Of a DNA stretch of 64,000 nucleotides, positions 7,361 to 64,000 are shown in pieces. Below the pieces are notes generated by a model, which saw nothing but the letters and a program-made list of their open reading frames with translations, had not been told where the DNA came from and ran no database searches. Position 1 is the first letter of the stretch. Each line of letters starts with the position of its first letter. Source of the stretch: a virus. The stretch lies in IMG/VR virus record IMGVR_UViG_3300023174_000063; one strand, given 5' to 3'. The position numbers and the translations under genes are program-made.

Positions 7361-7362
7361 GT

Positions 7363-8944: not shown

Positions 8945-8945
8945 A

Positions 8946-9593: not shown

Positions 9594-9595
9594 AA

Positions 9596-14000: not shown

Positions 14001-14154
14001 GCAGTTTAGAGTAATTTGTGACACTACGAATAATTCGCAGTCTGATGTTGATGAGAATAGGATGAACGGAAAGATCATAATCGTTCCAACTAGAGCAATT
14101 GAGTACATCTCGATCGATTTCGTAATAACAAATAGCGGCGTTATCTTCGAATAA
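11023..14154 (+). CDS. gp18: Tail sheath protein 1
   Basis: SPGFFEQEIDLS, GTAEKGPAFVP, PWFAPAGFNRG, FGQKTLQ...ALDRVNVRRLL, PTRAIEYISIDF. Confidence 0.95.
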   Translation: MAEQTFRSPGFFEQEIDLSARSATASGTPGGIIGTAEKGPAFVPVTVGNLTDFENRFGFLSIDRFGPYAVREFLKSKNALTYVRVLGAGTNETAAERFQTQVAGVSKNAGFKVVGLDSEVPAGHVQFIIAKHNVNTYESAGFPIFTDNLSYDLTDNTVNLVRGVLFTTTGSQFDIMHHNETVAEFLGSPHAFGTLDANSNFRLILSSAAGTAFSNDEGSAGIKVFTASLDPSSMSYIGRVLNTNPDRFQEEQHLLYLDLPIETELAKVENIVAGLSTFGPVGIVLGTESTTDSGYFTDSTFKELFGRYDSRFTTPKTPSFISQPYGTTEYDLFSFETISDGAWGNSRYKISIANIRKSNDPLNPYGTFDVQLRNFNDSDLSPEILEYYPECDLNPSSENYIARKIGDKKVFYNFDATDDSERRLIVTGKYENISPRIRILVSDNVEMRKIPNDALPFGFRGIPVIKTNNQLTDHGDLIADRNGRQLGTEGNRVVGAYGTGDGEDLLATIETGAIVPPLPFRFKCTRGAVNTSPSYTGHVGKNERADSRFYWGVKFEKLPSTGSTDNAILNANISSEINPLVAAYSKFQGIDKIDTLVTGSARDYFNDNKFTLARVALRNGMMSGHITDVTGTARDHMLEAAYIRHANPRSTDYTITENIGGIDVDRITLATLVHSTSTVFNRFQEFSKFTTLFYGGFDGLNILDKDIRLMSDRASSADAGGKAGVSIEGGLGLSGSDDGSLSGIGTKNNIVSSYRAAVDIITDPMSSNINILAIPGMRDSFITDYAAEKVKDFGLAIYLMDIPNYDVDGNRLFDDSSSRVDPRETSEVFESRVIDNNYVATYFPDVYMIEPANLSSVKVPPSVSAMGALAYNDRISYPWFAPAGFNRGALDTVTNVDVRLNTSDRDVLYDARINPIASFPAGGFVIFGQKTLQMAKSALDRVNVRRLLIEVKRIVASQAGRLLFEQNNAATRNRFVSQVTPLLALVQAQAGIEQFRVICDTTNNSQSDVDENRMNGKIIIVPTRAIEYISIDFVITNSGVIFE

Positions 14155-14208
14155 GACATATGTATTACTTGAATAAACTTAAGATTAATGTGACAGGAGT
14201 GTAAGACG

Positions 14209-17200: not shown

Positions 17201-18615
17201 GGGGCGTACAATTTGAAGTTCAAAGCAATCCACTCAATCTAAACTCGAACGCTGTAATCAATAAGTCGATATCGAGCTTTGCAAAGTTTTTCCCAAGCTT
17301 CCAGACAGGGCTTAATTTCTTGTCAGACAATACTTCGGGATTGCCTAATCTAGGCGATGGAATTGTTGTGGATGTTGACACCTTCAATAGAAATAAGTTC
17401 ACACTTGAGAATGTTCAAGTTGTTACAGGCGTCAATAATACTCCCGCTTCTACTCTCTGGAGCGCTGCTGTCTATAGACGTGACGGAGTTTTGGCCTCGT
17501 CACTCACAGCTTCTGACGGTCGCACATTTGAGGTAGAATCGACAAGATTCTTGGACCCAACAAACGATCTTAAAGATCAGACAACTCGTCAATTCGTTAA
17601 ATACACCTGCTTTGTACAGGGTGGATTTGATGGCTTCAATATTTTTGATAGCAATAAGTCCAAGATGACAGACGTTGCCATTAGAAGAGAGTTTGAGGAC
17701 GAAGACAATCAAGGAGGCATCTTTGGATCAACAATTGCTGCTTATAGAAAGGCAATTGATGTTCTGGGTGAGAAGACTGATGTCGATATTCAGCTCCTTG
17801 CAATTCCTGGCATTAGACACCCATCTGTGACAGACTACGCAATCGACGCCGTCGAGAGCCGATTCGATGCAATGTTTATTATGGATGTCGAGGAGAAAGA
17901 TCAAGAAAACGTATTTATTACAGGTTCAGTAAATCAGCTAGCTTCTGTTGCTAACACTGTTAATAATTTCAAGTCGAGAAACCTTGACACATCTTTCGCC
18001 GCGGCTTACTACCCAGACGTAATTGTCATCGATCCTGCAACAAGAACAAATGTTCAAGTTCCTCCATCGGTTGCAGTTCTTGGCGCATTCGCTCTGAATG
18101 ATGCGATTGCTTATCCATGGTTTGCACCTGCAGGTTTCACAAGAGGTGCATTGGCTAGCGTCCTAGAGACACAGGTAAAACTTAGTCGTCCAAACCTAGA
18201 CGCCCTCTACGATGCAGATATCAACCCAATCACTAGCTTCGCAGATTCACAGGGCGTGGTAGTTTTCGGTCAAAAGACACTGCAGACTGCACAAACTGCT
18301 CTCGATAGAGTCAACGTTAGAAGACTTCTTATTGAGATTAGACGACGTGTTAGAAGAATCGCAAATACATTTATTTTTGAGCCAAATAGAGCAGAGACAC
18401 TTGCAAGATTCTCGAGTCTTGTCACGCCAGTTCTTCAGCAAATTCAGGCTCAGAATGGTGTTGATCGTTTCAAAGTTCAAATTGACACAACAACTACAAC
18501 GCAAGCAGACGTCGAGAACAACACATTACGTGGAAAGATTTACGTCCAGCCAACCAAGACTGTTGAGTTCATCTCACTTGACTTCGTTGTAACAAACCAG
18601 GGCGCTCAGATCTAA
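14209..18615 (+). CDS. gp18: Tail sheath protein 2 with four inserted repeat domains
   Basis: SPGVSTREIDVS, KGRAFVP, PWFAPAGFTRG, FGQKTLQ...ALDRVNVRRLL, PTKTVEFISLDF. Confidence 0.93.
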   Translation: MASPFKSPGVSTREIDVSGPTSISPQGIPAGVIGTSQKGRAFVPITFATYRDFIAEFGSSDGEKFGPLAVNEWMRNSRAGTYVRVLGIGDGKRRTDDGVNAGRINNAGFVVGSSQVQSSGFVGGNPFANSDVITAVVTQAGGIGVALQESLTFLGVPAAGTSLSLTGSDGEFTVVTFVNDSTPGVNEIDVGALGNADEAAAALQAVIDSIDTFSAVVDGSVVTVTSDAGLSAASITVSEPAPAPGRTHFLATFMRETSAGSANILNDALGEGTITSDQGFPILRGIIFAASGVNLSLSTDVVDNNTPDPSLRAFFDFGVARDAGASHGTVTTADGKQTFVMILNGHKPSDLHNNVITASFDPTAADYFANVFNTDPHKIEEAGHLLYAHYDVYPSIAVPGAAYGSGENSATLTVNDEAVNNIDLVANLTFDRVPSAGTTVTLTDNEDTNTVITFVAGAAGPNEISIVGLADNVEAAAALQEVINGIATFTAAAEEESPVVTVTGASATGGTLPAIELDGVNIVSLVITNAAEPGEDLEVNITFSDIPTAGTFFDFTNGDGEEVRITFVAAAPAGNQISIAGLADAAAAASALANKINDVLGGFFTASTDLLTPTVVNVIGDNTPAGASAPTISYSETGSISIEIDTVPIAGVNLSVEIDFSAVPYPGDSFTFTPRDGGEPVTITFVDDAAPAANEINVGDLEDANDAAIALENKINLIALGLDDFFSAISVGTTVTVTGFVGTGEISLPLAVFSPLVNDAALLLHGASSWNVPDGLKPNYENFEERFQTAKSPWFISQKFGGKNKKLFRVHSIDDGAAGNSEFKITIENIAASNNVNYKYGTFDLLVRSINDTDIEPIVLESFRGLTLDPSSARYVARVIGDRHVFYDLDQLTGRQKLRIEGSYPNSSRYIRIEVEPQVSRQNVNSESLPVGFEGFAHTNTSGRIAADDDSLLTGYVAGASGLGVADFAKVKEPPVPMRTSLTQGVELAKKLNSKLTWGVQFEVQSNPLNLNSNAVINKSISSFAKFFPSFQTGLNFLSDNTSGLPNLGDGIVVDVDTFNRNKFTLENVQVVTGVNNTPASTLWSAAVYRRDGVLASSLTASDGRTFEVESTRFLDPTNDLKDQTTRQFVKYTCFVQGGFDGFNIFDSNKSKMTDVAIRREFEDEDNQGGIFGSTIAAYRKAIDVLGEKTDVDIQLLAIPGIRHPSVTDYAIDAVESRFDAMFIMDVEEKDQENVFITGSVNQLASVANTVNNFKSRNLDTSFAAAYYPDVIVIDPATRTNVQVPPSVAVLGAFALNDAIAYPWFAPAGFTRGALASVLETQVKLSRPNLDALYDADINPITSFADSQGVVVFGQKTLQTAQTALDRVNVRRLLIEIRRRVRRIANTFIFEPNRAETLARFSSLVTPVLQQIQAQNGVDRFKVQIDTTTTTQADVENNTLRGKIYVQPTKTVEFISLDFVVTNQGAQI
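14659..16425 (+). repeat. Four diverged ~80-100 aa acidic repeat domains in sheath 2 (one at ~14660-14890, three tandem at ~15480-16425)
   Basis: Shared pattern [L/I]TF..VP..G......T..DG....ITFV......NEI....L.D...AA.AL...IN....F.A......VTVTG. Confidence 0.85.
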
Positions 18616-50202: not shown

Positions 50203-50632
50203 AAACTGGTCTCCTCCTAGATCTCCTATCGGACTCATACAAGAAGATCTCTGGCCAAATGAATGGAAGATTCTTGTAGCATGTCTGCTGCTCAACCTCA
50301 CGACACGCAAGCAGGTTGATGGCGTCATCTATGAGCTATTTAAAAAATACCCCACTCCGGAGGCCCTGGGAGCTGCAGGAGACATCGAATTGGAGGAGAT
50401 GATCAAACCATTGGGTATGCAGAAGAAACGCTCTGCGACACTGCGGCGGTTCTCTAATGAATATCTCCAAAAGTCATGGAAGACTGCATCTGATCTTCAC
50501 GGGTGTGGCAAATACGCAAATGACTGCTGGCGGATTTTTTGTCTAGGTGAGTGGCGTAGTGTTCAACCTAGCGATCACGCTTTAAACAAGTATGTAGACT
50601 ACCTTAAGAAAGGAGATTCAATCGATGCCTGA
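50144..50632 (+). CDS. MBD4-like HhH-GPD mismatch DNA glycosylase
   Basis: WSPPRSP.GLIQE, WKILVACLLLN, KPLG, LHGCGKYAND.WRIFC..EW..V.P.DH.LNKY, matching the MBD4 glycosylase domain as I recall it. Likely start 50144 or 50150, overlapping the topoisomerase gene. Confidence 0.85.
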   Translation: MSMTSRIFAPSSSSKVTLPENWSPPRSPIGLIQEDLWPNEWKILVACLLLNLTTRKQVDGVIYELFKKYPTPEALGAAGDIELEEMIKPLGMQKKRSATLRRFSNEYLQKSWKTASDLHGCGKYANDCWRIFCLGEWRSVQPSDHALNKYVDYLKKGDSIDA

Positions 50633-51431
50633 GGGACCTGAGGTGCGACGCTTTGGCGACGACTTGGCAAGAGAAATTTCAGGAAAGACACTTGTCGATG
50701 TCAAAGTGCTTACTGGACGATATCTCAAGAAGCCAATTAACGGAATCGAAGATTTTAAGGCGAGACTACCACTTTCAGTTGTAGGCACCGGTGTTCACGG
50801 TAAGTTCTTGTACTGGATTCTAGAAGATTGCAATTTTGTTTTTAATACATTGGGAATGACAGGGCACTGGTCCAAGACGCCGGGTAAACACTCTAGAGTG
50901 GAGTTTAAGTTCTCAAGCGGAGAAAGTGTATTCTTTGAAGACACACGAAATTTCGGCACAATCTCTCTAGAGCGAGGCAAGAATAAGTTCTACAAGAAAA
51001 TAAACAGTCTCGGTCCTGACATGCTGGTAGAAGATGTAACAGACGACGTTTTTGTCGACAGGCTCCAGAAGCATCCTGACTGGCAGATTACAAGTGCCCT
51101 CATGGACCAGTCAGTAATCGCAGGCGTTGGCAATTACGTTAAAGCTGAAGCACTATACAGGTCGAATATATCACCTCTGCGTGCTGTCAGGTCAATTACG
51201 CGGCAAGAAGCAATTCTTCTGAATAAATCAATTAAAGACATTCTGAGAGAGAGCTACAATGCCGGAGGCACAACGGTCAAAGATTATCGGCGAATGGATG
51301 GCTCTTTGGGCGTGTACACATTCGATCTTCGTGTTTATAATAAGAAATATGATCCGGCAGGTAATCCTGTTGTCAAAACATTAACAGAAGATAATAGAAC
51401 CACGCACTGGGTCCCTAACACACAAAAGTGA
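50625..51431 (+). CDS. mutM: Fpg/Nei DNA glycosylase/AP lyase
   Basis: N-terminal MPEGPE, HGKFL, LGMTG, DTRNFG, LGPD, LMDQSVIAGVGNY..EAL; zincless finger RTTHWVP.TQ. Confidence 0.92.
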   Translation: MPEGPEVRRFGDDLAREISGKTLVDVKVLTGRYLKKPINGIEDFKARLPLSVVGTGVHGKFLYWILEDCNFVFNTLGMTGHWSKTPGKHSRVEFKFSSGESVFFEDTRNFGTISLERGKNKFYKKINSLGPDMLVEDVTDDVFVDRLQKHPDWQITSALMDQSVIAGVGNYVKAEALYRSNISPLRAVRSITRQEAILLNKSIKDILRESYNAGGTTVKDYRRMDGSLGVYTFDLRVYNKKYDPAGNPVVKTLTEDNRTTHWVPNTQK

Positions 51432-51678: not shown

Positions 51679-52047
51679 ATGTCAGATCGATTTGACGAAA
51701 TGTACGACCAGCAACGTGATTTCAACCAGCTACTGCATGAGCATCGTGGACAGCCTGCATTTCCACTAGATCTCAAGACAAAGCAGAACCAGCAGTATTT
51801 GAAGTCTCTCACACATGAGTGCATGCATGAGCTTTTTGAAGCAAATCTCCTGCTGAAAAACAGCAAGAAGCATCGTGCAACAATCGTCGAAGATTTTGAT
51901 CGTGAGTCCTACAAGGAAGAGCTCTGTGATGCACTGCATTACCTCCTGGGTATTGTCGTGTATTCTGGCATTTCTAAGGAAGAATTTTTCGAGGCCTACA
52001 TGAAAAAAGGCCAGATCAATGTTGATCGTATCAAGAGCGGGTACTAA
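51679..52047 (+). CDS. All-alpha NTP pyrophosphohydrolase (MazG/dimeric dUTPase/dCTPase-like)
   Basis: HELFE...EELCDALHY...Y..K..IN..R...GY. Confidence 0.8.
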   Translation: MSDRFDEMYDQQRDFNQLLHEHRGQPAFPLDLKTKQNQQYLKSLTHECMHELFEANLLLKNSKKHRATIVEDFDRESYKEELCDALHYLLGIVVYSGISKEEFFEAYMKKGQINVDRIKSGY

Positions 52048-52066: not shown

Positions 52067-53026
52067 TTGTCTGATTCTAAGTTTGAGTCGCTTGTTAGTG
52101 CTCTGCTAGAGCAGCGTAAATTTTCAGATCTTTTCTATGACACCAAGAACATGTCTGAGTCGGAGCGAGAAGAGTCTTTGCGCCGACTAGCCTTGTGTGC
52201 ACACACAGCTGTCTCAGACATCGTCTCTTCTGTCAACTTTAAGTCGCATCTCAAGACGCATCAGCATGTCGACCATGCGAAGATGCTCTACAAGACAGTT
52301 GATCTTTTTAGGTACACATTGGCAGTACTCAATCTTTGGGATATTGACCCACAAAAGTTTGTAGATGCGTGTGATATCAAGAACAATTTTCTTCATATGC
52401 GTCACCGTTTAGATTCAGCGCCATGGGACGGTCGTCCTGTTGTTGTGTTTGATTGCGATGATGTAATTGCAAAGTTTAGAAGTCATTTTGATAATTTTCT
52501 CGAGAAGAAGTGGTCGATCCCACTAAACCCTGACTCTAACGAGTATTACAATAACGCAGGTCTTGTTGAGGCAGGTCTAAATCCCGAGATTGCATTTAGA
52601 GACTTCTTGAGCTCTGGGCAGATGCGAGAGCTTAAAGTAAATACAAATGTAGCAGACGCAATGAGAATTCTCTCTGATAGAGGTTACTGGATCCAAATTT
52701 TGACTGCTCGTCCTGCTGAGAGCCTTAATTGCTTCTATGACACATTTCACTGGATTGAAAAGAATGGAATTCCATGCAATGCCGTTGGATTTAGTTCTGA
52801 AAAGTACAGGTGGGTAAGCGAGCAACAGTTCTACATGGACGGCAAAATGGTCTGTGCAGTCGATGACTCTCCTAAGCATGCTGCCGAGTTTGCAGCGCAT
52901 GGAGTGAAAGCCATAATGCCTGCTATGCCTTACAATGCACATGTCAAAAACTCTGACACGCTCGAGCGAGTAGACTTTTCTCTGCTGAGCGCTGATGAAA
53001 TTGTCAAGCTTATTGTCGATCTTTAA
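52067..53026 (+). CDS. Fusion: degenerate MazG-like domain + HAD 5'-nucleotidase (NT5C-like)
   Basis: C-terminal VVFDCDDVI, ILTAR, K, VDDSP. The N-terminal domain parallels the upstream MazG fold but lacks the acidic residues. Confidence 0.7.
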   Translation: MSDSKFESLVSALLEQRKFSDLFYDTKNMSESEREESLRRLALCAHTAVSDIVSSVNFKSHLKTHQHVDHAKMLYKTVDLFRYTLAVLNLWDIDPQKFVDACDIKNNFLHMRHRLDSAPWDGRPVVVFDCDDVIAKFRSHFDNFLEKKWSIPLNPDSNEYYNNAGLVEAGLNPEIAFRDFLSSGQMRELKVNTNVADAMRILSDRGYWIQILTARPAESLNCFYDTFHWIEKNGIPCNAVGFSSEKYRWVSEQQFYMDGKMVCAVDDSPKHAAEFAAHGVKAIMPAMPYNAHVKNSDTLERVDFSLLSADEIVKLIVDL

Positions 53027-53036: not shown

Positions 53037-53065
53037 GTGTAAAATTCGAAGAGTTGTGCTACAAT
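53037..53065 (+). promoter_or_regulatory. Early/middle promoter
   Basis: GTGTAA-N17-TACAAT with extended TG. Confidence 0.7.
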
Positions 53066-53086
53066 ATTAAAAAACGAGGAGTAGTG

Positions 53087-54067
53087 ATGCCAATTAATCA
53101 TGATCTAGAGCCGATTGTTCTTCCTATGGAGCTTAAGTTTGGTCGTCCTGTCAAGACAGAATATCACAATGCACTTGATGCACTCAAGGTTGAGCTTGTT
53201 GATGCGCCTACTCGACAGCAGGCTTGGAATGTTGCTTGGCACTTTGTAAAAGCCACATGGGCAGATCGACCTGATATTGACCCGGGTAGCGCAACACCGC
53301 ATGAACTCTCTAAGAATCTTGAGGATGTCTTTGGTGGCAGGACTCTTCCTGCTCCAATGGAGTGCCTAGGCTTCACCTTCCGGCTAAGCGGTCTATCCTT
53401 CCAGGACGTAACCCACATTATTCGTCACCGTGCTGGAACATTTGCGGCACAGTGTACGGGCGACAGAGACCTGAGAGATGACGATGCTGTAATTCCCGAG
53501 CCGGTGCAAAACTCGCCAGAGTTTCTCGAGCGCTGGAAGAAGATCGTCGATGAATCGAAGCAGCTTTATGCTGATATGACAGACTCGAAGGTCGTCTCGA
53601 TGATGGATGCTCGCCTCATTCTTCCAAAGTGCATGACGTCTTTCTACTATATGCGTCTGCCACTCAAGGATCTCATCGGCTTTATCTACCAGCGCCAGGA
53701 TAGGCAGATTCAAACAGCTGCCGACAATATCCTTGCAGTCAGAATGGCAGTTGAAGTTGCAAAGGTTTTGCCCGAGTTTACAGCTCTCGTCGACTTCAAT
53801 AAGCCCGATATGCACTACATTAAGACATTCCGAGTCAAGGAGGGCGATAAGTTTGTATCTCGTGGTACAAACCTCTACTGGCCTGAGCCCAAGAATGATA
53901 AGTTCGACTTTCACCCTGAGGACACGATCTATCAATGTAGGAGAGAAGAGCTTAATGGAACACACGGCGACGGTGAACAGAAGAAGTTCCTCCAGCACTG
54001 GAACAGCGGTGTCGCAGAGTTTGATGAGATTAAGACAAATTACGCATCATGGAAGGCAGGTAAGTAA
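53087..54067 (+). CDS. thyX: Flavin-dependent thymidylate synthase (ThyX)-like protein, divergent motif
   Basis: E...FTF.LSG.S..VTHIIRHR, DARLILP, F...R....Q; motif reads RHRAGTFAAQCTGDR; RBS GAGGAG before 53087. Confidence 0.75.
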   Translation: MPINHDLEPIVLPMELKFGRPVKTEYHNALDALKVELVDAPTRQQAWNVAWHFVKATWADRPDIDPGSATPHELSKNLEDVFGGRTLPAPMECLGFTFRLSGLSFQDVTHIIRHRAGTFAAQCTGDRDLRDDDAVIPEPVQNSPEFLERWKKIVDESKQLYADMTDSKVVSMMDARLILPKCMTSFYYMRLPLKDLIGFIYQRQDRQIQTAADNILAVRMAVEVAKVLPEFTALVDFNKPDMHYIKTFRVKEGDKFVSRGTNLYWPEPKNDKFDFHPEDTIYQCRREELNGTHGDGEQKKFLQHWNSGVAEFDEIKTNYASWKAGK

Positions 54068-54531
54068 TGAGTTTCGAAAGAAAGCAGTCAGTCTATCTCG
54101 CTAGCGGTTGGTTTTCTCCCGACCAGGACAAACAGCTCACAAAGCTCGAGAAGCTCTTTGATGATCGTTCAAGCTGGATTAATCTTGCATCTCCTCGTCG
54201 AATCTTTGTCTGCCCGCCTGACGCATCTCTTGAGGTGCAAGACAATGTTTTCAAGGGCAACATGAAGCATATCAGAGAGTGCGATTTTACTCTTGTCAAT
54301 ACAACTTATCGTGATATTGGCACGATTTGGGAAGCCGGCGCTGCATTTGCGCTTGATCGAAAGATCATTTACTTTTGTGAGAACCTGCCTGCCGGCGCAA
54401 AGTTCAATCTAATGCTTTCACGAAGCGGAATTAAGGTTTGTACAACTTTTGAACAACTTGAAGACTACCTCAATCGATGTGAAGCAGCAGGTGAGCTTCT
54501 ATATGAGCCGTACGACAAGGAAATTGAGTGA
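54067..54531 (+). CDS. Nucleoside 2-deoxyribosyltransferase/nucleotide N-glycosidase family protein
   Basis: VYLASGWFS, F..NM..I..CD, DIGTIWEAG.A, NLML. Confidence 0.85.
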   Translation: MSFERKQSVYLASGWFSPDQDKQLTKLEKLFDDRSSWINLASPRRIFVCPPDASLEVQDNVFKGNMKHIRECDFTLVNTTYRDIGTIWEAGAAFALDRKIIYFCENLPAGAKFNLMLSRSGIKVCTTFEQLEDYLNRCEAAGELLYEPYDKEIE

Positions 54532-54585: not shown

Positions 54586-55569
54586 ATGAACGTTTTTATC
54601 ACAGGACATAATGGATTTATCGCTATCAATCTTGTGAGCGCCTTCAAAAGACTTGGTCATAAAGTCATTAATTTTAATGAGGCACGAAATCGTCTCATCA
54701 CAAACAGCAAGGGAGAGCCATGTGTCTATCAAAATAGCGAAGATGCATGGCACCAATTTTTTCTAGACACAAAGACTGATGTTATTGTGCACAATGCAGC
54801 GCTAGTAGGCACTGATGTTGTGGCACTAAACCCAGAAGAATCTACACTGAGCAATGTCATGGGTACTCACACAATTTGTCGCGTCGCACGAAAAGCTTCT
54901 ATCCCTGTGTGCTATCTGGGCACATCAGTCATCTATGACACTCCTAAGTACCAGAACGCTGCGATTACTGAGAGAAGTGAACAGCGTCCAGGCACTTTTT
55001 ATGGGGTACAGAAGTTGGCCGGAGAACATATAGTCATGTCAACTGCGTCTGAGTGGCTCATCATGCGACCACTTTTTGCTTATGGCGGCTTAGGCGATAT
55101 GAACTCTCTTCCTGCAAAGACATTTTATGCACAGCATCGAGGCGTTGCCAGCATTCCAATGTTTCTAGATCCTGAAAAGTCAAAAGACTACATGCATGTT
55201 GAAGACTTTTGTGATGCAGTTGCGCTAGGGTGCGATGCAGGTCTTTGGCAGCAAGATTTTAATATTTCAGCTGAGCTGCCACTCAAGACAGGTGAAATCG
55301 TCAACCTGATGTCGTCTGTTTGTGGCCATGACTTGGAAAAGATTATTAAGTGGCACCCAGAGACGGATTACCTTGGAAATCATATTCTTTCATCAGAAAA
55401 ATTTAGGAAAGCTACTACTTGGACACCTAAATTTACATTAGCCAAAGGGCTGAAGCAGTCATGGGAAAGTATCCTCGGCGCCTCTAGTCAGTACAACCCT
55501 CTGACGTATTTGGATGAAGCTGAAAAAAGAGGAGTGGATCTAGTTCAATATTTTCCAAAGAGTACGTGA
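54586..55569 (+). CDS. NAD-dependent NDP-sugar epimerase/dehydratase (extended SDR)
   Basis: VFITGHNGFIA, HNAA, TSVIY, YGVQK, RP..AYG, KDYMHVEDF. Confidence 0.88.
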   Translation: MNVFITGHNGFIAINLVSAFKRLGHKVINFNEARNRLITNSKGEPCVYQNSEDAWHQFFLDTKTDVIVHNAALVGTDVVALNPEESTLSNVMGTHTICRVARKASIPVCYLGTSVIYDTPKYQNAAITERSEQRPGTFYGVQKLAGEHIVMSTASEWLIMRPLFAYGGLGDMNSLPAKTFYAQHRGVASIPMFLDPEKSKDYMHVEDFCDAVALGCDAGLWQQDFNISAELPLKTGEIVNLMSSVCGHDLEKIIKWHPETDYLGNHILSSEKFRKATTWTPKFTLAKGLKQSWESILGASSQYNPLTYLDEAEKRGVDLVQYFPKST

Positions 55570-58306: not shown

Positions 58307-61300
58307 ATGTCGTTTGACAGTGCAGCTCTACAAAATCTCTTGAAAATTTCACCGCCCAAGAACTTTACAGGGCTCCATTCACACTCGTCGTTTTCGACGT
58401 TCGATGGGCTCGGTTATCCAAAGGATCACATCGAGTTCATCACTAGCGAAGCACAGGGCATGGACTCGTGGGCACTGACTGACCACGGCAACGGCTCAGG
58501 CCTCGCACACGCTCGAGCTGCTGCTGTTAAGAAGCAAAAGTCAGGCAAGAAGTATCGCCAGCTTTACGGCGTTGAGTTCTATTTTGTTCCCTCACTTGAT
58601 GAGTGGCAAAAGCAGATAGATGCCCACCAGCAGTCTGTAAAGGACGCAAAGTCTTCTCGCGAGGCACAGCTCCTCGCTGAGTCTCCCACAATCATCAAGC
58701 CTGCCGACGAGGATGATGAGCAGGGCGGTCACGTTATTGAAAACGAGGAGGAGACAAAGGAATCGAAGACAGACAAGCCCGAGTGGAAGCGATACTACCA
58801 CCTTGTTGTCATCGCCAAAAACAGAGTGGGTCTCGGCAATCTCTTCACGCTCGTAAAGAAGTCATTCAAGCACGGCTTCTACCGATTCCCGAGAATCGAT
58901 TATAAGATGTTGAAAGAGCACGGCGAAGGTCTTGTCGTCAGCACGGCATGTGTTGGCGGCCTTCCATCGTCGCTTATCTACCGCGAGTTTGCCGGCAAGT
59001 CTTTCAATGAACTTACGCCTGATCTCTTGACAGGACCTGCTGCAGAGGCTGCCGTCAAGAATATTCGCGGACGTCTTGATAATATGGCAGATCGTTTTGT
59101 TGACTGCGTCGGCCGTGACAATTTCTTCCTGGAACTCCAGTTTAACGATCTTCCTGCACAGCATCTGACAAATCAGTGTCTCATCGAGCTTTCGCAGCGC
59201 ACAGGTCTTCCTCTTGTCGCAACGGCTGACTCACACTTCCCGTCTCCTGACAAGTGGCAGGCACGTGAGCTCTACAAGAAGCTTGGCTGGATTGGCGCAA
59301 AGCTTGACAAGACCATGATTCCCAAGCTCGAAGACATGAAGACGATGTTGTACCCGAAGAATGCCGAGCAGATGTGGGAAGAGTTTAAGAAGGGCTACAC
59401 ACAGTACTCCTTCTATCAGGGTCATGAAGAACTAGTTCGTGATGCAATCGAGCGCACACACGATATTGCTTGGCAGAAGTGCGAAGACACCTGGGTCGAC
59501 ACCAGCGTCAAGCTCCCAATTCACCGCTTCGAGGACAAGACACCATTTCAGCGCCTTGTTGAGCTTGCAAAGGACCATCTCGCCCAGGAAGGTCTTGCTG
59601 ACAATCCCGTCTATGTTGAGCGTCTCAAGGAGGAGCTTTCTGACATCAAGCATCTTGGTCATGAATCGTACTTCCTTACGATGTACGAGGTCTTCAAGCG
59701 CGCTGAGAAGCGTACGCTTATGGGTCCTGGTCGTGGCTCTGCTGCTGGTTCACTTCTAAACTTCCTGCTCGGCATCACACAGTTTGACCCACTTCCTTAC
59801 GGTCTGCTTTGGGGTCGTTTTCTTGGGCGCTGGCGCGTCTCATATCCCGATATCGACACTGACGCTGCCAATCGTGACATTCTTATTGATTCTGCACGAG
59901 AGCTCTACGGCGATGATGCGGTCATTCCAGTATCTAACTTCAATACTCTCAAGCTGAAGTCTCTGATCAAGGACATCTCTAAGTTCTATGACGTGCCCTT
60001 CGAGGAGGTGAATGCCATGACTGGTCCCCTCCAGGACGAGGTCATGCCTCACGCTCGAGATGACGACCAGGAGAAGTCTGTGTTCGTCTTGAAGCACGAG
60101 GACTGCATGAAGTACTCAGAGGGCTACAGAACCTTCATGGAGAAATATCCTGACGTTGCGGCGCACGTAGAAACGCTATTCATGGAGAATAGAAGCATCG
60201 GTCGTCACGCTGGCGGCGTCATTCTTGCAGATCCCACCGCGCTTGAGCAGTCAATGCCAATCATCAGTGTGCGCGGTGAACTCCAGACGCCGTGGACCGA
60301 GGGCATGAACTTTCGCAATCTTGAGGACAATGGATTCTTGAAGTTTGACTTCTTGGGTCTCACTCTCTTGAAGGACGTCGAGGACTGCATTGCTCGAATT
60401 CTGCGTCGTAGAGGCAATAAGAATCCCACCTTTGCGGACGTTAAGGCTTTCTTTGACGAGAACATTAACTGCCGCTATCACAAGCTTGACGACCCTGCTG
60501 TCTACAAGCACGTCTATCACCAGCGTCGCAAGACGGGCGTATTTCAGTTTACCAACGAGGGGGCTAGAAAGCTCTGTGAGGAGGCGCGCCCTTCATCCAT
60601 CGAAGAGGTTGCAGCTATTACAGCAATTTATCGGCCGGGCCCCCTCAAGGCAAATGTGCACAGAAAGTACATCAAGGCTCGTGAGGAGTTCGGCGCAGGT
60701 CGAATGAAGTTTGATCATCCTATTATTGAAGAAATTCTAGGACCTACTGCTGGATTCTTAATCTATCAGGAGCAGTTCATGGAGTTGGCTCGACGTCTGG
60801 GCGGCTTTACGAACGCAGAGTCAGATCAGCTTCGCAAGACTCTTGTTAAGAAGTCGCTGGATACTCTCGACAAGAAGGGTTCTGAGAAGGAGCTAGCAAA
60901 GCAGAAGTTCATCGAGGGCGCGCAGAAGCTCCACGGGTTGAGTCCTGCCATTACAGAGCCGCTCTGGCAGACAATCGATTTCATGTCTGTATACTGCTTC
61001 AATAAGTCTCACAGCGTTTCTTATGCAATTGATTCTTACTACGCTGCATGGTTCCACACGCACTATGAGACTGATTGGCTGGCAACTTGTCTACAATCTG
61101 AGAATAATAATCCTGACGGTCTAGAGAAGACGATCACAGAGATTAAGTCGTACGGCTACAAGTTCATGCAATCAGACATCAACTATTCAGGTGATGTGTG
61201 GATGTATTCTAATGAGCTCCAAGCATTTATTCCGCCTCTCAGCTCTGTCAAGGGTGTAGGAACCACTGCCATGGAAGAAATCATGAAGAATCGTCCTTAC

Positions 61301-61981
61301 AAGAATCTTGATGATCTTCTCTACGATGCGAGTGGTGAGTGGCGACACTCTAAGGTCAATAAGACTGCCATGCGATCACTCTGCCTTATCGAGGCTTTCT
61401 CCTCGCTTGAAGAGCTGAAGAGCGGTCGAATTAGAAATCATAGGCAGCTTTTGGCTCTCCTGACAGATGAGAAGAACTATGACACTCTTCGCAAGGGTCG
61501 CTTTGGATTGTCTCCAACACAGATCAAGAAGCTGCAGAAGAGCGGCGAGGTTGTTGTACCCATCATTGATAAGCTTATTGAGACTTACGAGGGGCTGCCC
61601 GACTGGAGTCGAACTGAGAAGCTTAAGAATCTCATGGAGATGACGTCCAGTGTCAGCAATGACCTGCTCTTCCCATCATCGTTAATGCGCAAAGTGAAAG
61701 AGAAGTCAGTGCCTTCAGTCTTTCAAATTCCAGGGGGTACAAAGGGCATTGGTTGGTTCTGCGTGACGGAAGTTCACCAGAAGTCAACCAAGAACGGAAA
61801 GAGCTTTTTGCGCCTTAGAATAATTGACAATGAGAATAATTCGACATGGCTGCGCTGCTGGGGCAAGTTTGAAGAAACACCGGATGAGTTCTCTCTCTGG
61901 ATCGGTGAAATCGAAAATGACTCCAGCTGGGGCATGTCAACATCTTCCTGGAAGATTAAGCAGCTCAAGGCATTTGAGTAA
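58307..61981 (+). CDS. dnaE: DNA polymerase III alpha subunit (family C)
   Basis: PHP domain HSHS.FS.FDG, TDHG, GVE, DSH; GPGRGSAAGSL, PDIDTD, HAGGV, KFDFLGL, GVFQF, YRPGP, YQEQ, FNKSHS. Confidence 0.97.
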   Translation: MSFDSAALQNLLKISPPKNFTGLHSHSSFSTFDGLGYPKDHIEFITSEAQGMDSWALTDHGNGSGLAHARAAAVKKQKSGKKYRQLYGVEFYFVPSLDEWQKQIDAHQQSVKDAKSSREAQLLAESPTIIKPADEDDEQGGHVIENEEETKESKTDKPEWKRYYHLVVIAKNRVGLGNLFTLVKKSFKHGFYRFPRIDYKMLKEHGEGLVVSTACVGGLPSSLIYREFAGKSFNELTPDLLTGPAAEAAVKNIRGRLDNMADRFVDCVGRDNFFLELQFNDLPAQHLTNQCLIELSQRTGLPLVATADSHFPSPDKWQARELYKKLGWIGAKLDKTMIPKLEDMKTMLYPKNAEQMWEEFKKGYTQYSFYQGHEELVRDAIERTHDIAWQKCEDTWVDTSVKLPIHRFEDKTPFQRLVELAKDHLAQEGLADNPVYVERLKEELSDIKHLGHESYFLTMYEVFKRAEKRTLMGPGRGSAAGSLLNFLLGITQFDPLPYGLLWGRFLGRWRVSYPDIDTDAANRDILIDSARELYGDDAVIPVSNFNTLKLKSLIKDISKFYDVPFEEVNAMTGPLQDEVMPHARDDDQEKSVFVLKHEDCMKYSEGYRTFMEKYPDVAAHVETLFMENRSIGRHAGGVILADPTALEQSMPIISVRGELQTPWTEGMNFRNLEDNGFLKFDFLGLTLLKDVEDCIARILRRRGNKNPTFADVKAFFDENINCRYHKLDDPAVYKHVYHQRRKTGVFQFTNEGARKLCEEARPSSIEEVAAITAIYRPGPLKANVHRKYIKAREEFGAGRMKFDHPIIEEILGPTAGFLIYQEQFMELARRLGGFTNAESDQLRKTLVKKSLDTLDKKGSEKELAKQKFIEGAQKLHGLSPAITEPLWQTIDFMSVYCFNKSHSVSYAIDSYYAAWFHTHYETDWLATCLQSENNNPDGLEKTITEIKSYGYKFMQSDINYSGDVWMYSNELQAFIPPLSSVKGVGTTAMEEIMKNRPYKNLDDLLYDASGEWRHSKVNKTAMRSLCLIEAFSSLEELKSGRIRNHRQLLALLTDEKNYDTLRKGRFGLSPTQIKKLQKSGEVVVPIIDKLIETYEGLPDWSRTEKLKNLMEMTSSVSNDLLFPSSLMRKVKEKSVPSVFQIPGGTKGIGWFCVTEVHQKSTKNGKSFLRLRIIDNENNSTWLRCWGKFEETPDEFSLWIGEIENDSSWGMSTSSWKIKQLKAFE

Positions 61982-61990: not shown

Positions 61991-62019
61991 TTGTACACAT
62001 CGAGTGCATTGTGTATAAT
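61991..62019 (+). promoter_or_regulatory. Early/middle promoter
   Basis: TTGTAC-N17-TATAAT. Confidence 0.65.
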
Positions 62020-62048
62020 ACGTTGAATCCAACAAGGAGATGTTCATA

Positions 62049-63005
62049 ATGCTGAACTTGAAGTGCATTACTATTGAGGGCCCTGACTGCGCCGGCAAGA
62101 GCTCTCTCTATAATGATATTCATCGAGAAACTAGCTTTAGATGGAATATTCAAGACAGAGGTCAGCTAAGCATGGTTTGCTATGCTAGACTCTATGAACG
62201 AGGTAGTGAAATAGTTGATCATTGGCGCGCAGAACTTCATGAGTACCTTAAAAATCTAAATCAACGTCTAATTGTGCTTCTGCCGCCTCTTCGTGTGCTA
62301 CACCAGCGCCTGGAGTCACGAGGCGACCCCATGCAGAATGCAGAGTCCCTGTCTAAACTTTACGAGATATTTGATGACGAGCTTAAGATTTTGCACGCTG
62401 AAGATCTGCCTAATGTGTTGGTTATTAGAGGCGAAAATTCCCTAGATGAAAACGTTAAGCATTGCCTGTCATGGTTGGCGCATGCGGGCATTTCCACTGC
62501 TAGAAATATTGCCAGCGACGTAGAGGCTGCAGTATTTGCATCACCTAAGAATGAAATATGTGGTTTAAATTTTGAACTCAATTTCAAGAGCGGCACCGCC
62601 GAGTTTCAGGCGCTGGAGAATCCAGCAGTAATGCAGTATCTGCCAGAAGAGGTGTATTACTCTGAAATACTGTCAAAAGTTTTAAAGAATATTGACGACG
62701 AAATCAATGGTAGAAATCCTTACTCACGCCCTGAGAACCCGCGGAGTACGCGCCGTTTTATCTTTGCGCAAGATAGCTGCATTTCTACTATTCATACAAT
62801 GATTCGCGACGATTCGATGACAATGAAGGTCTACTGTAGATCATCAAATGTTACCAATACATTTCCCCATGATCTAGGATTTATCTGCTATCTTTTCACT
62901 AGAGTTTATCATCATTTATTTCACCGTACGCTATGGCGACCAACAAATTGCTCTCTGCGAGTAGAGATTGGATCTGCACATTTACCCGCAATGGCGGGCC
63001 ACTAA
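62049..63005 (+). CDS. Fusion: dNMP kinase + truncated thymidylate-synthase (ThyA)-fold domain
   Basis: N-terminal IEGPDCAGKS, DRG.LS..Y, RL..RGD; C-terminal STRRFI...SCIS...YCRSSN....PHD...GSAH. Confidence 0.75.
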   Translation: MLNLKCITIEGPDCAGKSSLYNDIHRETSFRWNIQDRGQLSMVCYARLYERGSEIVDHWRAELHEYLKNLNQRLIVLLPPLRVLHQRLESRGDPMQNAESLSKLYEIFDDELKILHAEDLPNVLVIRGENSLDENVKHCLSWLAHAGISTARNIASDVEAAVFASPKNEICGLNFELNFKSGTAEFQALENPAVMQYLPEEVYYSEILSKVLKNIDDEINGRNPYSRPENPRSTRRFIFAQDSCISTIHTMIRDDSMTMKVYCRSSNVTNTFPHDLGFICYLFTRVYHHLFHRTLWRPTNCSLRVEIGSAHLPAMAGH

Positions 63006-63024: not shown

Positions 63025-64000
63025 ATGCATGTTTTAGTCACAGGTGGCGCAGGTTTTATTGGCAGCAATCTTGTTCACGCTCTTGTCCAAAAAGGCTGGA
63101 TCGTCGACGTTATTGATGATTTAAGCAGTGGTAATTTAGATAATCTTGCAGGTCTAGAGACAAGGTTTTTGACGACTAATATCCTGCATTTCTATGAGGA
63201 GAATGTAGAGTCAGGTGACCATAAAAAAGTTCGTTTTATTACTGGAGACTTTGCAAATCTCAATGTTCTTCGACGCATAGAGGCTGGAAAATATCGCTAT
63301 ATCTTCCATCTAGCTGCAGTACCTAGAGTTGGTTTTAGTGTTCAATTTCCTGCAGAAACCGCAGAAACTAATCTTTTAAAGACAATCAAGCTTTTTGAAT
63401 CTGCTTCAAAGTCTGGATCTTGTCGTGTTATTTTCTCTTCGTCATCTTCTGTGTACGGCAACGCATCTGTCAGACCCACGCCTGAGTCCATTACAAAGCA
63501 CCCGAGGTCGCCATATGCGCTACAGAAACTACACTGCGAAGATTATGCACGTCTTTTTAGAGAACTTCACGGATTAGATTTTGTTGCGCTTCGATATTTT
63601 AATGTCTATGGGCCTCGACAGTTTGGCAACTCTCCTTACGCAACCGCCATCTCAGCTTGGTGCACTGCAGTTCACACAGGAAAGCCGCTTCGAAGCGACG
63701 GCGACGGCACACAGTCTAGAGATCTCACGTATGTCGATGACGTAGTAGAAGCAAATATTAAGGCAGCATTGGCTGGAGCATCATGTTCAGGAGAGAGCTA
63801 TAATATTGCTGCCGGTAAGCCTGTTTCAAATCTCAAGATTCTCGAGGCGTTTCGAGATCGTTACGGAGATAAAGTCACTATAACAAAAGCACCTTGGCGC
63901 CCCGGCGACGTGATGCATACAGAGGCCGACCCTATGAAGGCACGGCTACAACTAGGATTTACGTGCAGTGTAGACTTTGACACTGGTCTGCGCAAGACAT
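63025..64000 (+). CDS. NDP-sugar 4-epimerase (extended SDR, GalE/WbpP-like); 3'-truncated and missing from the ORF track
   Basis: Translated by hand: MHVLVTGGAGFIGSNL, IDDLSSG, FHLAA, SSSSVYG, PYALQK, LRYFNVYGPRQ, GDGTQSRD; RBS GGGAG. Confidence 0.92.
   Translation, partial: MHVLVTGGAGFIGSNLVHALVQKGWIVDVIDDLSSGNLDNLAGLETRFLTTNILHFYEENVESGDHKKVRFITGDFANLNVLRRIEAGKYRYIFHLAAVPRVGFSVQFPAETAETNLLKTIKLFESASKSGSCRVIFSSSSSVYGNASVRPTPESITKHPRSPYALQKLHCEDYARLFRELHGLDFVALRYFNVYGPRQFGNSPYATAISAWCTAVHTGKPLRSDGDGTQSRDLTYVDDVVEANIKAALAGASCSGESYNIAAGKPVSNLKILEAFRDRYGDKVTITKAPWRPGDVMHTEADPMKARLQLGFTCSVDFDTGLRKT

What the first reader, a model, noticed from the sequence alone, without database searches (positions are those of the whole stretch)
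62049..63005. dNMP kinase fused to a stripped-down ThyA-fold domain with a cytosine-specifying Asp
Seen: a P-loop kinase is joined to STRRFIF..DSCIS...YCRSSNVTNTFPHD...GSAH. Against E. coli ThyA (RR...PCH...YQRSCD......PFN...DTHLY), the RR pair, catalytic Cys, RS and His are kept. The Asn177 position is Asp (PHD), the change that gives dCMP specificity in T4 gp42. The folate-contacting Asp169 is Asn, and much of the N-terminal folate-binding region appears absent. Inference: it activates C5 of dCMP toward a non-folate co-substrate and passes the product to the fused kinase. It sits 19 bp upstream of an NDP-sugar epimerase gene behind one promoter.
Basis: partly seen in the sequence, partly recalled or inferred. 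Interest (0 to 1): 0.82.

Follow-up and report, generated by a model that had tools for sequence, protein, structure and literature searches.

The report
Nucleotide kinase fused to minimal thymidylate-synthase-like enzyme
An uncultured giant phage encodes, right after its DNA polymerase, one protein joining a nucleotide kinase to a stripped-down thymidylate-synthase-like enzyme built to read cytosine, so the phage probably puts a chemically altered C (most likely 5-hydroxy-C) into its DNA.

Summary
ORF 62049-63005 (318 aa) has two domains. Residues 1-149 are a YorR/thymidylate-kinase-like P-loop kinase (Z 14). Residues ~150-318 are a 170-residue core of the ThyA fold (Z 10-11). In an exhaustive search, only TS-superfamily chains score Z 8 or more.

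Cys244, Arg235/236, Arg264-Ser265, Asp275 (= E. coli Asn177) and His311 are invariant or nearly so in 80 unique homologs. Asn267 occupies the Asp169 position. The W80/W83/Y94 region, a loop before the Cys and the C-terminal ~50 residues of ThyA are missing.

Closest relatives by profile and fold are T4 dCMP hydroxymethylase and the recently described flavin/O2-dependent 5-hydroxy-dCMP synthases (HY126 AfhB, RB69 gp48). Those clusters carry a separate YorR-like kinase, which is fused here.

Position 267 switches among N, D and E at least 11 times in the family, which fits neither known class.

The family is large (427 clusters at 50% identity), viral, without a Pfam family for the TS-like half, and absent from cultured phages. 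This scan has found the same family before on other DNA, with the same reading.

The parts
61992..62019 (+). sigma-70-like promoter match (TGTACA-16-TATAAT) upstream of the fusion gene
   Evidence: It matches 10 of 12 positions, but such matches are no more frequent here than in shuffles (3 found, 2.8 expected). It is a consensus match only.
62035..62040 (+). ribosome-binding site AAGGAG, 8 nt before the ATG at 62049
   Evidence: read directly from the sequence.
62049..63005 (+). fusion gene, 318 aa plus stop
   Evidence: All 88 related loci carry a fused ORF, mostly of 295-330 aa.
62049..62495 (+). N-terminal YorR/thymidylate-kinase-like P-loop kinase domain (residues 1-149)
   Evidence: VIA Z 14.0 to YorR 2axp (141 aa aligned, rmsd 2.9) and Z 13-13.5 to TMPKs and a dNK. 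Profile E 3.6e-10 to YorR. phrog_761 'thymidylate kinase' E 2.9e-10.
62076..62102 (+). P-loop E10-G-x-D13-x-x-G16-K17-S
   Evidence: E10, G11, D13, G16 and K17 are invariant in 80 of 80 unique homologs.
62496..63002 (+). C-terminal minimal ThyA-fold domain (residues ~150-318)
   Evidence: AF2 pLDDT 93.9. Z 11.1 to MilA, 11.0 to AfhB and about 10 to ThyA, with 139-144 aa aligned. Exhaustive search: only TS-superfamily chains reach Z 8 or more.
62751..62756 (+). Arg235-Arg236, counterpart of the trans-acting Arg126'/Arg127' of ThyA
   Evidence: R235 is in 80/80 and R236 in 79/80. In the predicted homodimer, R235 touches S309, R264, S265 and H311 of the partner.
62778..62780 (+). Cys244, counterpart of the catalytic nucleophile (E. 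coli Cys146, T4 Cys148)
   Evidence: 80/80 invariant. Aligned to T4 Cys148.
62838..62873 (+). R264-S265-S-N267 ... D275 segment, with the same spacing as ThyA R166 ... N177
   Evidence: R264, S265 and D275 are in 79/79. Position 267 is N 36, D 28, E 15. Alignment to T4 dCH and AfhB.
62979..62981 (+). His311, counterpart of ThyA His207 / T4 His216. The protein ends 7 residues later.
   Evidence: 79/79 invariant. Alignment.
63026..64000 (+). downstream extended-SDR NDP-sugar epimerase/dehydratase gene (cut by the window end)
   Evidence: Pfam Epimerase E 2.7e-55. The full-length copy is GalE-like at 161 bits, below the equivalog cut-off of 262. It lies directly downstream of the fusion in 55 of 79 loci.
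58307..61981 (+). phage DnaE-type DNA polymerase III alpha, always immediately upstream
   Evidence: Pfam. The DnaE-fusion order holds in all 88 loci.

Best explanation
The gene encodes a bifunctional phage enzyme of deoxynucleotide metabolism.

The C-terminal domain is a homodimeric, minimal thymidylate-synthase-fold enzyme. It binds a cytosine mononucleotide, presumably dCMP. Arg264, Ser265 and the partner's Arg235/236 hold the phosphate, Asp275 reads the 4-amino face of the base, and Cys244 attacks C6 to activate C5. It then installs a C5 substituent without the canonical methylene-tetrahydrofolate chemistry. The most likely product is a hydroxyl group, as in the flavin/O2-dependent 5-hydroxy-dCMP synthases AfhB and RB69 gp48.

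The N-terminal YorR/TMPK-like kinase then phosphorylates the modified dNMP to the diphosphate. After host NDP kinase acts, the phage's own DnaE polymerase (the gene just upstream) can incorporate it. The neighbouring SDR 'epimerase' genes, and glycosyltransferases elsewhere in related genomes, may then decorate the new hydroxyl.

Shown here: the two folds, the conserved residues, the predicted TS-like dimer and the conserved gene order. Inferred: substrate, chemistry, product, hand-over to the kinase and glycosylation.
For: Fold:
- C-domain model has pLDDT 93.9.
- Z is 11.0 to AfhB 9iqu, 11.1 to MilA and about 10 to ThyA.
- AfhB entries top both other searches: 9iqu by Foldseek (E 3.8e-7) and 9iqc in the exhaustive search (Z 10.5). 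All seven chains with Z 8 or more are TS-superfamily.

Sequence:
- The C-domain profile hits T4 dCH at E 4.5e-4 and AfhB at E 0.018, and no canonical ThyA.
- Catalytic and substrate residues are invariant in 80 unique homologs: C244, R235, R264, S265, D275, H311, E200.

Dimer:
- Homodimer score 0.74, best of 3 controls 0.00.
- That mark was reached by 20 of 30 proteins solved as pairs of one chain and by 1 of 23 solved as single chains.
- The runs agree in at least 97% of contacts, and partner pLDDT is at least 88.
- R235 touches the partner's R264, S265 and H311.
- TS dimers are solved, so this pass may reflect likeness to them.

Non-folate chemistry:
- Asn267 sits at the Asp169 position. The D169N mutant of TS fails to open the cofactor's imidazolidine ring (title of PDB 1bjg).
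- D169N + N177D is the published signature of 5hodCMP synthases, all nine tested being active (PMC13326640).
- The domain lacks about 33 residues between the E58 and R126 equivalents, 11 before the Cys, and about 50 at the C-terminus.

Kinase link:
- HMMs of the N and C halves pick RB69 gp45 (cluster 'nucleotide kinase', E 2.2e-6) and gp48 (5hodCMP synthase, E 1.7e-5) as the only significant hits among 154 ORFs of the RB69 region.
- The paper's Table 1 gives YorR/TMPK as top folds for those kinases, as here.
- A split kinase | homing endonuclease | mini-TS form exists.

Context:
- A nucleotide-pool module surrounds the gene: MazG/dUTPase_2-like, NT5C-like, NDT-like, dCMP deaminase and TK.
- An SDR gene lies directly downstream in 55 of 79 loci.
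- GT4 glycosyltransferases are present in 3 of 5 large related contigs.
Against: - No activity data exist for any member.
- The position equivalent to Asp169 is N in 36, D in 28 and E in 15 of 80 unique homologs. It changes at least 11 times on the tree and has no co-varying active-site residue. The 'D169N = hydroxylase' rule does not describe the family, and the residue looks interchangeable.
- The domain is about 65 residues shorter than AfhB or RB69 gp48. About a third of AfhB's aligned span has no counterpart, so the flavin site may not exist.
- The structures of AfhB, MilA, ThyA and T4 dCH are tied within about 1-2 Z units, so fold does not choose among chemistries.
- The best sequence hit is the folate-dependent T4 dCH, not AfhB.
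- Glycosyltransferases are not adjacent, and the GT/SDR cluster in the complete relative could serve glycans other than DNA.
- The phages also carry dCMP deaminase, TK and a ThyX-like gene, so the kinase could simply be their thymidylate kinase.
Confidence: 0.45

Rival explanations
1. The mini-TS domain performs a C5 chemistry that belongs to neither known class, folate-dependent methylene transfer or AfhB-type flavin hydroxylation. The co-substrate would be delivered by a partner or by the fused kinase domain. Candidates are the conserved, rewired ThyX-like flavoprotein of the same module, or a pterin. The product would be an undescribed modified cytosine nucleotide.
For: - The Asp169-equivalent varies freely among N, D and E with at least 11 switches. 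Both known classes fix this residue.
- The cofactor-side walls of ThyA are deleted: the W80/W83 region, the loop before the Cys and the C-terminus.
- The full-length model is rigid (pTM 0.88), so the kinase domain could complete the pocket.
- A divergent ThyX sits in the same conserved module. It scores 31.6 bits against a cut-off of 87.9 and has RHR-x7-CTGDR in place of RHR-x7-SxR.
- Pterin_4a genes recur nearby.
Against: This is inference from absences only. No cofactor site was modelled. Co-occurrence within one phage lineage is not independent evidence. The window protein itself does carry the published 5hodCMP signature.
Confidence: 0.2
2. It is a folate-dependent dCMP hydroxymethylase (or methylase) fused to its dNMP kinase, that is T4 gp42 + gp1 in one chain. 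Folate would be bound in a reduced pocket.
For: - The best sequence match of the C-domain profile is T4 dCH (E 4.5e-4).
- Asp or Glu at the Asp169 position in 43 of 80 homologs.
- An acidic or polar residue lies 2-3 positions before the Cys, as in hydroxymethylases (rule from PMC13326640).
- The IRD motif after the Cys is shared with T4 dCH.
Against: - The window protein and 35 other homologs have Asn at the Asp169 position, which in TS blocks cofactor activation (PDB 1bjg title).
- The Trp80/Trp83 region and the C-terminal segment are missing.
- Pfam PF00303 is not reached.
Confidence: 0.15
3. The TS-like domain is no longer an enzyme. It would be a nucleotide-binding, dimerising or regulatory appendage of the phage's thymidylate/dNMP kinase.
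For: - The domain is heavily reduced.
- The gene sits in a dTTP-supply context (TK, dCMP deaminase, ThyX-like).
- JGI annotates homologs as 'thymidylate kinase'.
Against: - The nucleophile Cys, both phosphate-binding Arg sets, Ser265, Asp275, His311 and Glu200 are invariant across 80 sequences that are only about 30-50% identical.
- Standalone mini-TS proteins keep the same residues.
Confidence: 0.1
4. It is an ordinary thymidylate synthase-thymidylate kinase fusion making dTDP from dUMP.
For: A 437-aa viral 'thymidylate kinase/thymidylate synthase' cluster carrying PF00303 exists in the ESM Atlas. The kinase is TMPK-like.
Against: - Asp, not Asn, is at the Asn177 position in 79 of 79.
- Asn is at Asp169 in this protein.
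- The folate-binding elements are missing.
- The phage carries a ThyX-like gene.
- No canonical ThyA appears in the profile search.
Confidence: 0.03

Closest known systems
Flavin/O2-dependent 5-hydroxy-dCMP synthases of the TS superfamily (HY126 AfhB, PDB 9iqu/9iqc; RB69 gp48; DLP3 gp80; RL38J1 gp216), PMC13326640
   Same: - TS fold.
- Catalytic Cys and the Arg-Ser phosphate site.
- Asp at the Asn177 position, and Asn at the Asp169 position in this protein.
- The C-terminus ends a few residues after the His.
- Top structural hits.
- A YorR/TMPK-like kinase in the same gene set, with sugar-nucleotide genes nearby.
   Different: - About 65 residues shorter, with no counterpart for roughly a third of AfhB's core span.
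- The kinase is fused rather than separate.
- The Asp169-equivalent is not fixed in the family (N/D/E).
- Flavin binding is unknown.
- No adjacent glycosyltransferase.
- Sequence similarity is only marginal (E 0.018).
T4 gp42 dCMP hydroxymethylase (PDB 1b49/1b5d), together with T4 gp1 dNMP kinase
   Same: - Best profile hit (E 4.5e-4).
- Cys148, Arg168-Ser169, Asp179 and His216 are all matched in register.
- The Ile-Arg-Asp motif after the Cys is shared.
- The pathway logic is the same: modify dCMP, then phosphorylate it with a phage kinase.
   Different: - gp42 is 246 aa, folate-dependent, and has Asp171.
- Its kinase (gp1) is a separate gene and a different kinase family.
- This protein has Asn267 and lacks the folate-side elements.
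E. coli / L. casei thymidylate synthase ThyA (Pfam PF00303)
   Same: - Core fold from helix A to the strand carrying His207. The structural alignment spans E. coli residues 1-214.
- Predicted obligate-dimer geometry with trans Arg.
- Identical R166-to-N177 spacing.
   Different: - Asp instead of Asn177, and Asn instead of Asp169.
- Deletions of about 33, 11 and 50 residues.
- Below the Pfam threshold.
- No dUMP-type specificity residue.
YorR (SPbeta prophage, PDB 2axp/3kb2) and thymidylate kinases; the 'nucleotide kinases' RB69 gp45, DLP3 gp78 and RL38J1 gp214
   Same: - Fold (Z 14.0).
- The EGxDxxGK P-loop, the Asp-Arg motif and the Arg-x3-Arg-Gly-Asp lid segment.
- The profile picks RB69 gp45 as the only hit in its region.
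   Different: - Fused to a TS-like domain.
- Below the Pfam thresholds for Thymidylate_kin and dNK.
- Substrate untested here and, for YorR and gp45, in the papers read.
MilA/MilB of mildiomycin biosynthesis (CMP hydroxymethylase plus NDT-family N-glycosidase)
   Same: - MilA ties for the top structural match (Z 11.1).
- It has a cytosine-specific Asp.
- An NDT-family gene lies in the same phage module.
   Different: MilA is 318 aa, folate-dependent and CMP-specific, and it belongs to an antibiotic pathway. Nothing here shows a ribonucleotide substrate.

Membership tests
Thymidylate synthase / dCMP hydroxymethylase superfamily (ThyA fold) | TS alpha/beta fold | tested here: met
   Z 10-11 with 138-144 aa aligned. 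In the exhaustive search, all seven chains with Z 8 or more are TS-superfamily and the next hit is Z 5.6.
Thymidylate synthase / dCMP hydroxymethylase superfamily (ThyA fold) | Catalytic Cys nucleophile and the Arg-Ser phosphate-binding pair, 20 residues apart | tested here: met
   C244 is in 80/80 and R264-S265 in 79/79. The spacing of 20 residues matches ThyA and T4 dCH.
Thymidylate synthase / dCMP hydroxymethylase superfamily (ThyA fold) | Obligate homodimer with an Arg pair reaching into the partner's active site | tested here: met
   Prediction only. Score 0.74 against 0.00 for the best of 3 controls. R235 contacts the partner's R264, S265 and H311. The pass may reflect likeness to solved TS dimers.
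Thymidylate synthase / dCMP hydroxymethylase superfamily (ThyA fold) | Reaches the Pfam PF00303 gathering score | tested here: not met
   The window protein has no PF00303 hit at E up to 1. Standalone relatives score 12-13 bits against a cut-off of 24.3.
Folate-dependent members (ThyA, T4 gp42, MilA) | Asp169 plus the Trp80/Trp83 region and the C-terminal segment that bind CH2-THF | tested here: not met
   Asn267 sits at the Asp169 position. The protein ends 7 residues after His311. The Glu200-to-Arg235 span is 35 residues, against 68 for E58-R126 in ThyA. Equating Glu200 with E58 is motif-based inference.
5-hydroxy-dCMP synthases (AfhB / RB69 gp48 class) | Asp at the Asn177 position | tested here: met
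   D275 is in 79/79.
5-hydroxy-dCMP synthases (AfhB / RB69 gp48 class) | Asn at the Asp169 position (diagnostic residue of PMC13326640) | tested here: inconclusive
   It is met in this protein (N267). Across orthologs the position is N 36, D 28, E 15, with at least 11 switches.
5-hydroxy-dCMP synthases (AfhB / RB69 gp48 class) | Bound flavin and O2-dependent hydroxylation | not testable with these tools
   No coordinates or ligand modelling were available, and He et al. 2026 is not held.
5-hydroxy-dCMP synthases (AfhB / RB69 gp48 class) | Gene set with a YorR/TMPK-like kinase, NDP-sugar genes and DNA glycosyltransferases | tested here: inconclusive
   The kinase is fused, so that part is met. 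An SDR gene lies downstream in 55 of 79 loci. GT4 genes occur only elsewhere, in 3 of 5 large contigs, and their target is unknown.
Thymidylate kinase / dNMP kinase (YorR-like) | P-loop kinase fold with the EGxDxxGK(S/T) loop, the Asp-Arg motif and a lid Arg | tested here: met
   Z 14.0 to YorR and 13-13.5 to TMPKs. E10, G11, D13, G16, K17, D36, R37, R87 and R91 are invariant.
Thymidylate kinase / dNMP kinase (YorR-like) | Reaches the Pfam Thymidylate_kin or dNK gathering score | tested here: not met
   There are only sub-threshold AAA_28, AAA_18 and dNK hits. phrog_761 gives E 2.9e-10.

The most novel reading that the evidence does not exclude
The mini-TS domain represents a third cofactor regime in the thymidylate-synthase superfamily. 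It would be neither folate-dependent nor AfhB-type flavin-dependent. The co-substrate would be supplied by the fused kinase domain's surface or by a partner such as the rewired ThyX-like flavoprotein of the same module. The result would be an undescribed C5-modified cytosine that replaces C in the DNA of a very abundant group of aquatic jumbo phages.
Probability: 0.2. Interest if true: 0.85.

Novelty: new variant of a known kind. Interest (0 to 1): 0.64.

Why it matters
TS-superfamily enzymes are the entry points to nearly all known phage pyrimidine hypermodifications. Their active-site signatures are now being used to predict DNA chemistry from sequence.

This family is large: 427 clusters at 50% identity, and 133 IMG/VR loci on contigs up to 284 kb. 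It is purely viral and absent from cultured phages. Current annotation misses its TS-like half, labelling the proteins 'hypothetical' or 'thymidylate kinase'.

It shows how far the TS fold can be pared down, to about 170 residues, while keeping the covalent-catalysis machinery. It also gives a natural fusion that ties a YorR-like kinase to a dCMP-modifying enzyme, which suggests what the unassigned 'nucleotide kinases' of the RB69, DLP3 and RL38J1 clusters do.

The free N/D/E variation at the supposedly diagnostic Asp169 position is a caution for signature-based prediction, and a hint of different chemistry.

If these phages carry modified cytosine, that affects restriction and CRISPR evasion, and how well their DNA is recovered and sequenced in metagenomes.

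Tried and rejected
- tblastn of the fusion and of the standalone mini-TS P0198 against 50,697 phage records found nothing. P0192 gave only marginal hits to 225-253-aa TS-like proteins of Tenacibaculum and Bacteroides phages. No cultured relative is available.
- The DnaE has only matches below 30% identity in cultured phages.
- No whole genome is held for the window.
- He et al. 2026 (AfhB structure) is not held, so flavin-contacting residues could not be mapped.
- hhalign of the family against single RB69 sequences was weak (probability 85% over the P-loop only, 42% for the TS core). HMM searches of the RB69 region replaced it.
- I tested whether N, D or E at position 267 tracks the presence of either SDR gene and found no association.
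- I tested whether it co-varies with any active-site residue. Only gappy tail columns did.
- The idea that the epimerase adjacency was lineage-specific, raised, was rejected after counting 79 loci (55 have it).
- Literature searches for a described kinase-TS fusion in phage hypermodification found none.
- One Pfam call failed on a mis-framed reference and was not repeated.
- Sequence methods could not align the N-terminal half of the mini-TS to ThyA. The equivalence Glu200 = Glu58 rests on the E-x-x-aromatic-aromatic motif and on helix order.
Full report
**What is there.**
The finding lies in a 64-kb stretch of an uncultured contractile-tailed phage. The window encodes a major head protein, two tail-sheath-like proteins, UvsX, DnaB, RNR, topoisomerase II and a DnaE-type polymerase.

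The ORF runs from ATG 62049 to the stop at 63003-63005, giving 318 aa. AAGGAG lies 8 nt upstream of the start. Homologs begin at the same Met.

A sigma-70-like match lies at 61992-62019. Such matches are no more frequent here than in shuffles. No terminator-like site separates the gene from the SDR gene that starts 20 nt after its stop.

**Two domains.**
AlphaFold2 with a 31-sequence alignment gives a confident model (pLDDT 93.6, pTM 0.88).

Residues 1-149 superpose on the SPbeta protein YorR at Z 14.0 (141 aa, rmsd 2.9). They also superpose on thymidylate kinases and a deoxynucleoside kinase at Z 13-13.9. The family profile hits YorR at E 3.6e-10, and phrog_761 'thymidylate kinase' scores E 2.9e-10.

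The C-terminal part was folded alone (173 aa, pLDDT 93.9):
- It superposes on MilA (Z 11.1), HY126 AfhB (Z 11.0, 139 aa, rmsd 3.3) and many ThyA entries (Z about 10). The alignment spans E. coli residues 1-214.
- AfhB is the top Foldseek hit (E 3.8e-7).
- An exhaustive alignment to 48,161 representative chains gives seven chains with Z 8 or more. All are TS-superfamily, led by the AfhB-type entry 9iqc at 10.5, and the next chain scores 5.6.

The would-refute condition 'does not adopt the TS fold' is therefore not met.

**Residues.**
A profile of 47 C-domains hits T4 dCMP hydroxymethylase at E 4.5e-4 and AfhB at E 0.018. No canonical ThyA is hit. The alignment is in register:

| This protein | T4 dCH | E. 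coli ThyA |
|---|---|---|
| Cys244 | Cys148 | Cys146 |
| Arg264-Ser265 | Arg168-Ser169 | Arg166-Ser167 |
| Asn267 | Asp171 | Asp169 |
| Asp275 | Asp179 | Asn177 |
| His311 | His216 | His207 |

Among 80 unique sequences from 88 loci, these residues are invariant or missing only in one truncated row:
- Kinase half: E10, G11, D13, G16, K17, D36, R37, R51, R87, R91, G92, D93.
- TS-like half: E200, R235, C244, R253, R264, S265, D275, F278, H311.

The Ile-Arg-Asp motif after the Cys is shared with T4 dCH and RB69 gp48, but not with E. coli ThyA (the ThyA sequence is from memory).

**What is missing.**
The domain has about 170 residues, against 264 in E. coli ThyA and 238 in RB69 gp48.
- Glu200 to Arg235 spans 35 residues, against 68 for Glu58 to Arg126. 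This leaves no room for the Trp80/Trp83/Tyr94 segment.
- Arg236 to Cys244 spans 8 residues, against 19 in ThyA.
- The chain ends 7 residues after His311, as RB69 gp48 nearly does.

The equivalence Glu200 = Glu58 is my inference from the E-x-x-aromatic-aromatic motif and the order of helices. The rest follows from the alignments and the secondary structure.

**Dimer.**
Two copies of the C-domain were predicted to pair. The score was 0.74 and the best of 3 controls was 0.00. That mark was reached by 20 of 30 proteins solved as pairs of one chain and by 1 of 23 solved as single chains. The runs agreed in at least 97% of contacts, and the partner's pLDDT was at least 88.

Arg235 of one copy touches Ser309, Arg264, Ser265 and His311 of the other. 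This is the ThyA arrangement, in which Arg126'/127' complete the partner's phosphate site. TS dimers are solved, so the pass may be partly from memory. It shows likeness, not binding.

**Literature.**
Lee et al. (NAR 2026, PMC13326640) show that phage ThyA homologs with N177D and D169N make 5-hydroxy-dCMP. These include RB69 gp48, DLP3 gp80 and RL38J1 gp216, and all nine further D169N homologs tested were active. The enzymes use a loosely bound flavin and O2.

The paper cites He et al. for the HY126 AfhB structure (PDB 9iqu/9iqc). It proposes D169N as diagnostic.

Its Table 1 lists an unassigned 'nucleotide kinase' in each cluster (RB69 gp45, DLP3 gp78, RL38J1 gp214). The top folds for these kinases are YorR and thymidylate kinase, the same neighbours as the N-domain here.

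HMMs of the two halves of the fusion were searched against all 154 six-frame ORFs of RB69 20-45 kb. They picked gp45 (E 2.2e-6) and gp48 (E 1.7e-5) as the only significant hits.

The title of PDB 1bjg records that the D169N mutant of TS does not open the cofactor's imidazolidine ring. An Asn here therefore argues against canonical CH2-THF use.

**Family and context.**
- The family has 427 cluster representatives at E 1e-3 or better, among 1.84 billion proteins.
- There are 133 loci in IMG/VR, on contigs up to 284 kb.
- Three all-viral 'hypothetical protein' clusters in the ESM Atlas belong to it.
- Nearly all members are fused. Standalone mini-TS proteins of 166-200 aa keep the same motifs.
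- One locus has the order kinase | homing endonuclease | mini-TS.
- A separate 437-aa viral 'thymidylate kinase/thymidylate synthase' cluster with PF00303 also exists. The fusion idea as such is therefore not unique.

The gene order DnaE - fusion - (SDR) - TK - (DHHA1) - dCMP deaminase holds in all 88 loci. The SDR gene lies directly downstream in 55 of 79 informative loci.

Upstream lie Fpg, a MazG/dUTPase_2-like protein, an NT5C-like protein, a divergent ThyX, an NDT-family protein and a second SDR. Three of five large related contigs encode 3-4 GT4 glycosyltransferases. In a complete 284-kb relative, two of them sit with three SDRs, a methyltransferase, a radical-SAM protein and a carbamoyltransferase. 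The target of these transferases is unknown.

**The complication.**
The Asp169-equivalent is N in 36, D in 28 and E in 15 of 80 sequences. It changes at least 11 times on the family tree. It is unrelated to the presence of either SDR gene, and no active-site column co-varies with it.

Known folate enzymes fix Asp here, and known hydroxylases fix Asn. Either this family switched chemistry repeatedly, or, more simply, its chemistry does not depend on that side chain's identity.

This keeps three readings open: hydroxylase, hydroxymethylase, or something else.

**Verdict.**

The most likely mechanism (0.45) has three steps:
1. The dimeric mini-TS activates dCMP through Cys244.
2. It installs a C5 group by non-folate chemistry, most plausibly hydroxylation.
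3. The fused kinase makes the diphosphate for the phage's DnaE.

The rivals are an unknown third chemistry (0.2), a folate-dependent hydroxymethylase (0.15), a non-catalytic appendage (0.1) and an ordinary TS-TMPK (0.03).

It is a new variant of a known kind. This scan has reported the same family on other genomes (e1-5335440, e1-5388500, e1-5335431) with the same reading. New here are the N/D/E lability with its tree count, the dimer test, the standalone and split forms, and the locus counts.

Noticed in passing
window 53054-54067 (+): The ThyX homolog is divergent. It scores 31.6 bits against the TIGR02170 cut-off of 87.9. Its motif reads RHR-x7-CTGDR instead of RHR-x7-SxR (Ser replaced by Cys, Arg shifted by two), and it has a long C-terminal extension. 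It is conserved in the same module in related phages, so it may not be an ordinary thymidylate synthase.
   Followed up: partly
window 54067-54531 (+): A nucleoside 2-deoxyribosyltransferase-family protein (Pfam E 6.4e-13) is conserved next to the ThyX-like gene. Relatives such as MilB hydrolyse (hm)CMP (this point is from memory). Here it could clear canonical dCMP from the pool or release a modified base.
   Followed up: no
window 51679-52047 and 52067-53026 (+): A 122-aa all-alpha MazG/dUTPase_2-like pyrophosphatase is followed by an NT5C/HAD-like nucleotidase with an N-terminal extension. These are candidate dCTPase and dNMPase enzymes for excluding a canonical base. Both are conserved in related loci.
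   Followed up: partly
window 54586-55569 (+) and 63026-64000 (+): Two extended-SDR 'epimerase' genes flank dnaE. One is RmlD/dTDP-glucose-dehydratase-like and the other GalE-like, and both score below the equivalog cut-offs. 29 of 68 informative loci have both, and 11 have neither.
   Followed up: partly
L102 (G002:C1:118000-137000), ORFs at 7311-17429 (-): A complete 284-kb related phage carries a glycan cluster: two GT4 transferases (one resembling 'GT4-conflict'), a PD-(D/E)XK nuclease, a true GDP-mannose 4,6-dehydratase, two more SDRs, a methyltransferase, a radical-SAM protein and a carbamoyltransferase. Whether it decorates DNA or another glycan is unknown.
   Followed up: partly
L002 20780-20936, L008 18801-19163, L009 17177-17545; also L004 11269-11952: Pterin-4a-carbinolamine dehydratase-like and Sod_Fe_C-like genes recur a few kb downstream of the fusion in several related phages. 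The pterin-recycling enzyme is odd for a phage and might relate to an oxygenase cofactor.
   Followed up: no
L098 2499-3990 (+): In one metagenomic contig the kinase (152 aa) and the mini-TS (186 aa) are separate genes, split by a NUMOD3 homing-endonuclease gene.
   Followed up: partly
window 50625-51431 (+): A phage-encoded Fpg/Nei-type DNA glycosylase, complete with H2TH and zinc-finger domains, heads the nucleotide module and is conserved in relatives.
   Followed up: no
window 11023-14154 and 14209-18615 (+): Two adjacent, very large tail-sheath-like proteins (1043 and 1468 aa) carry the sheath domain only at their C-termini.
   Followed up: no
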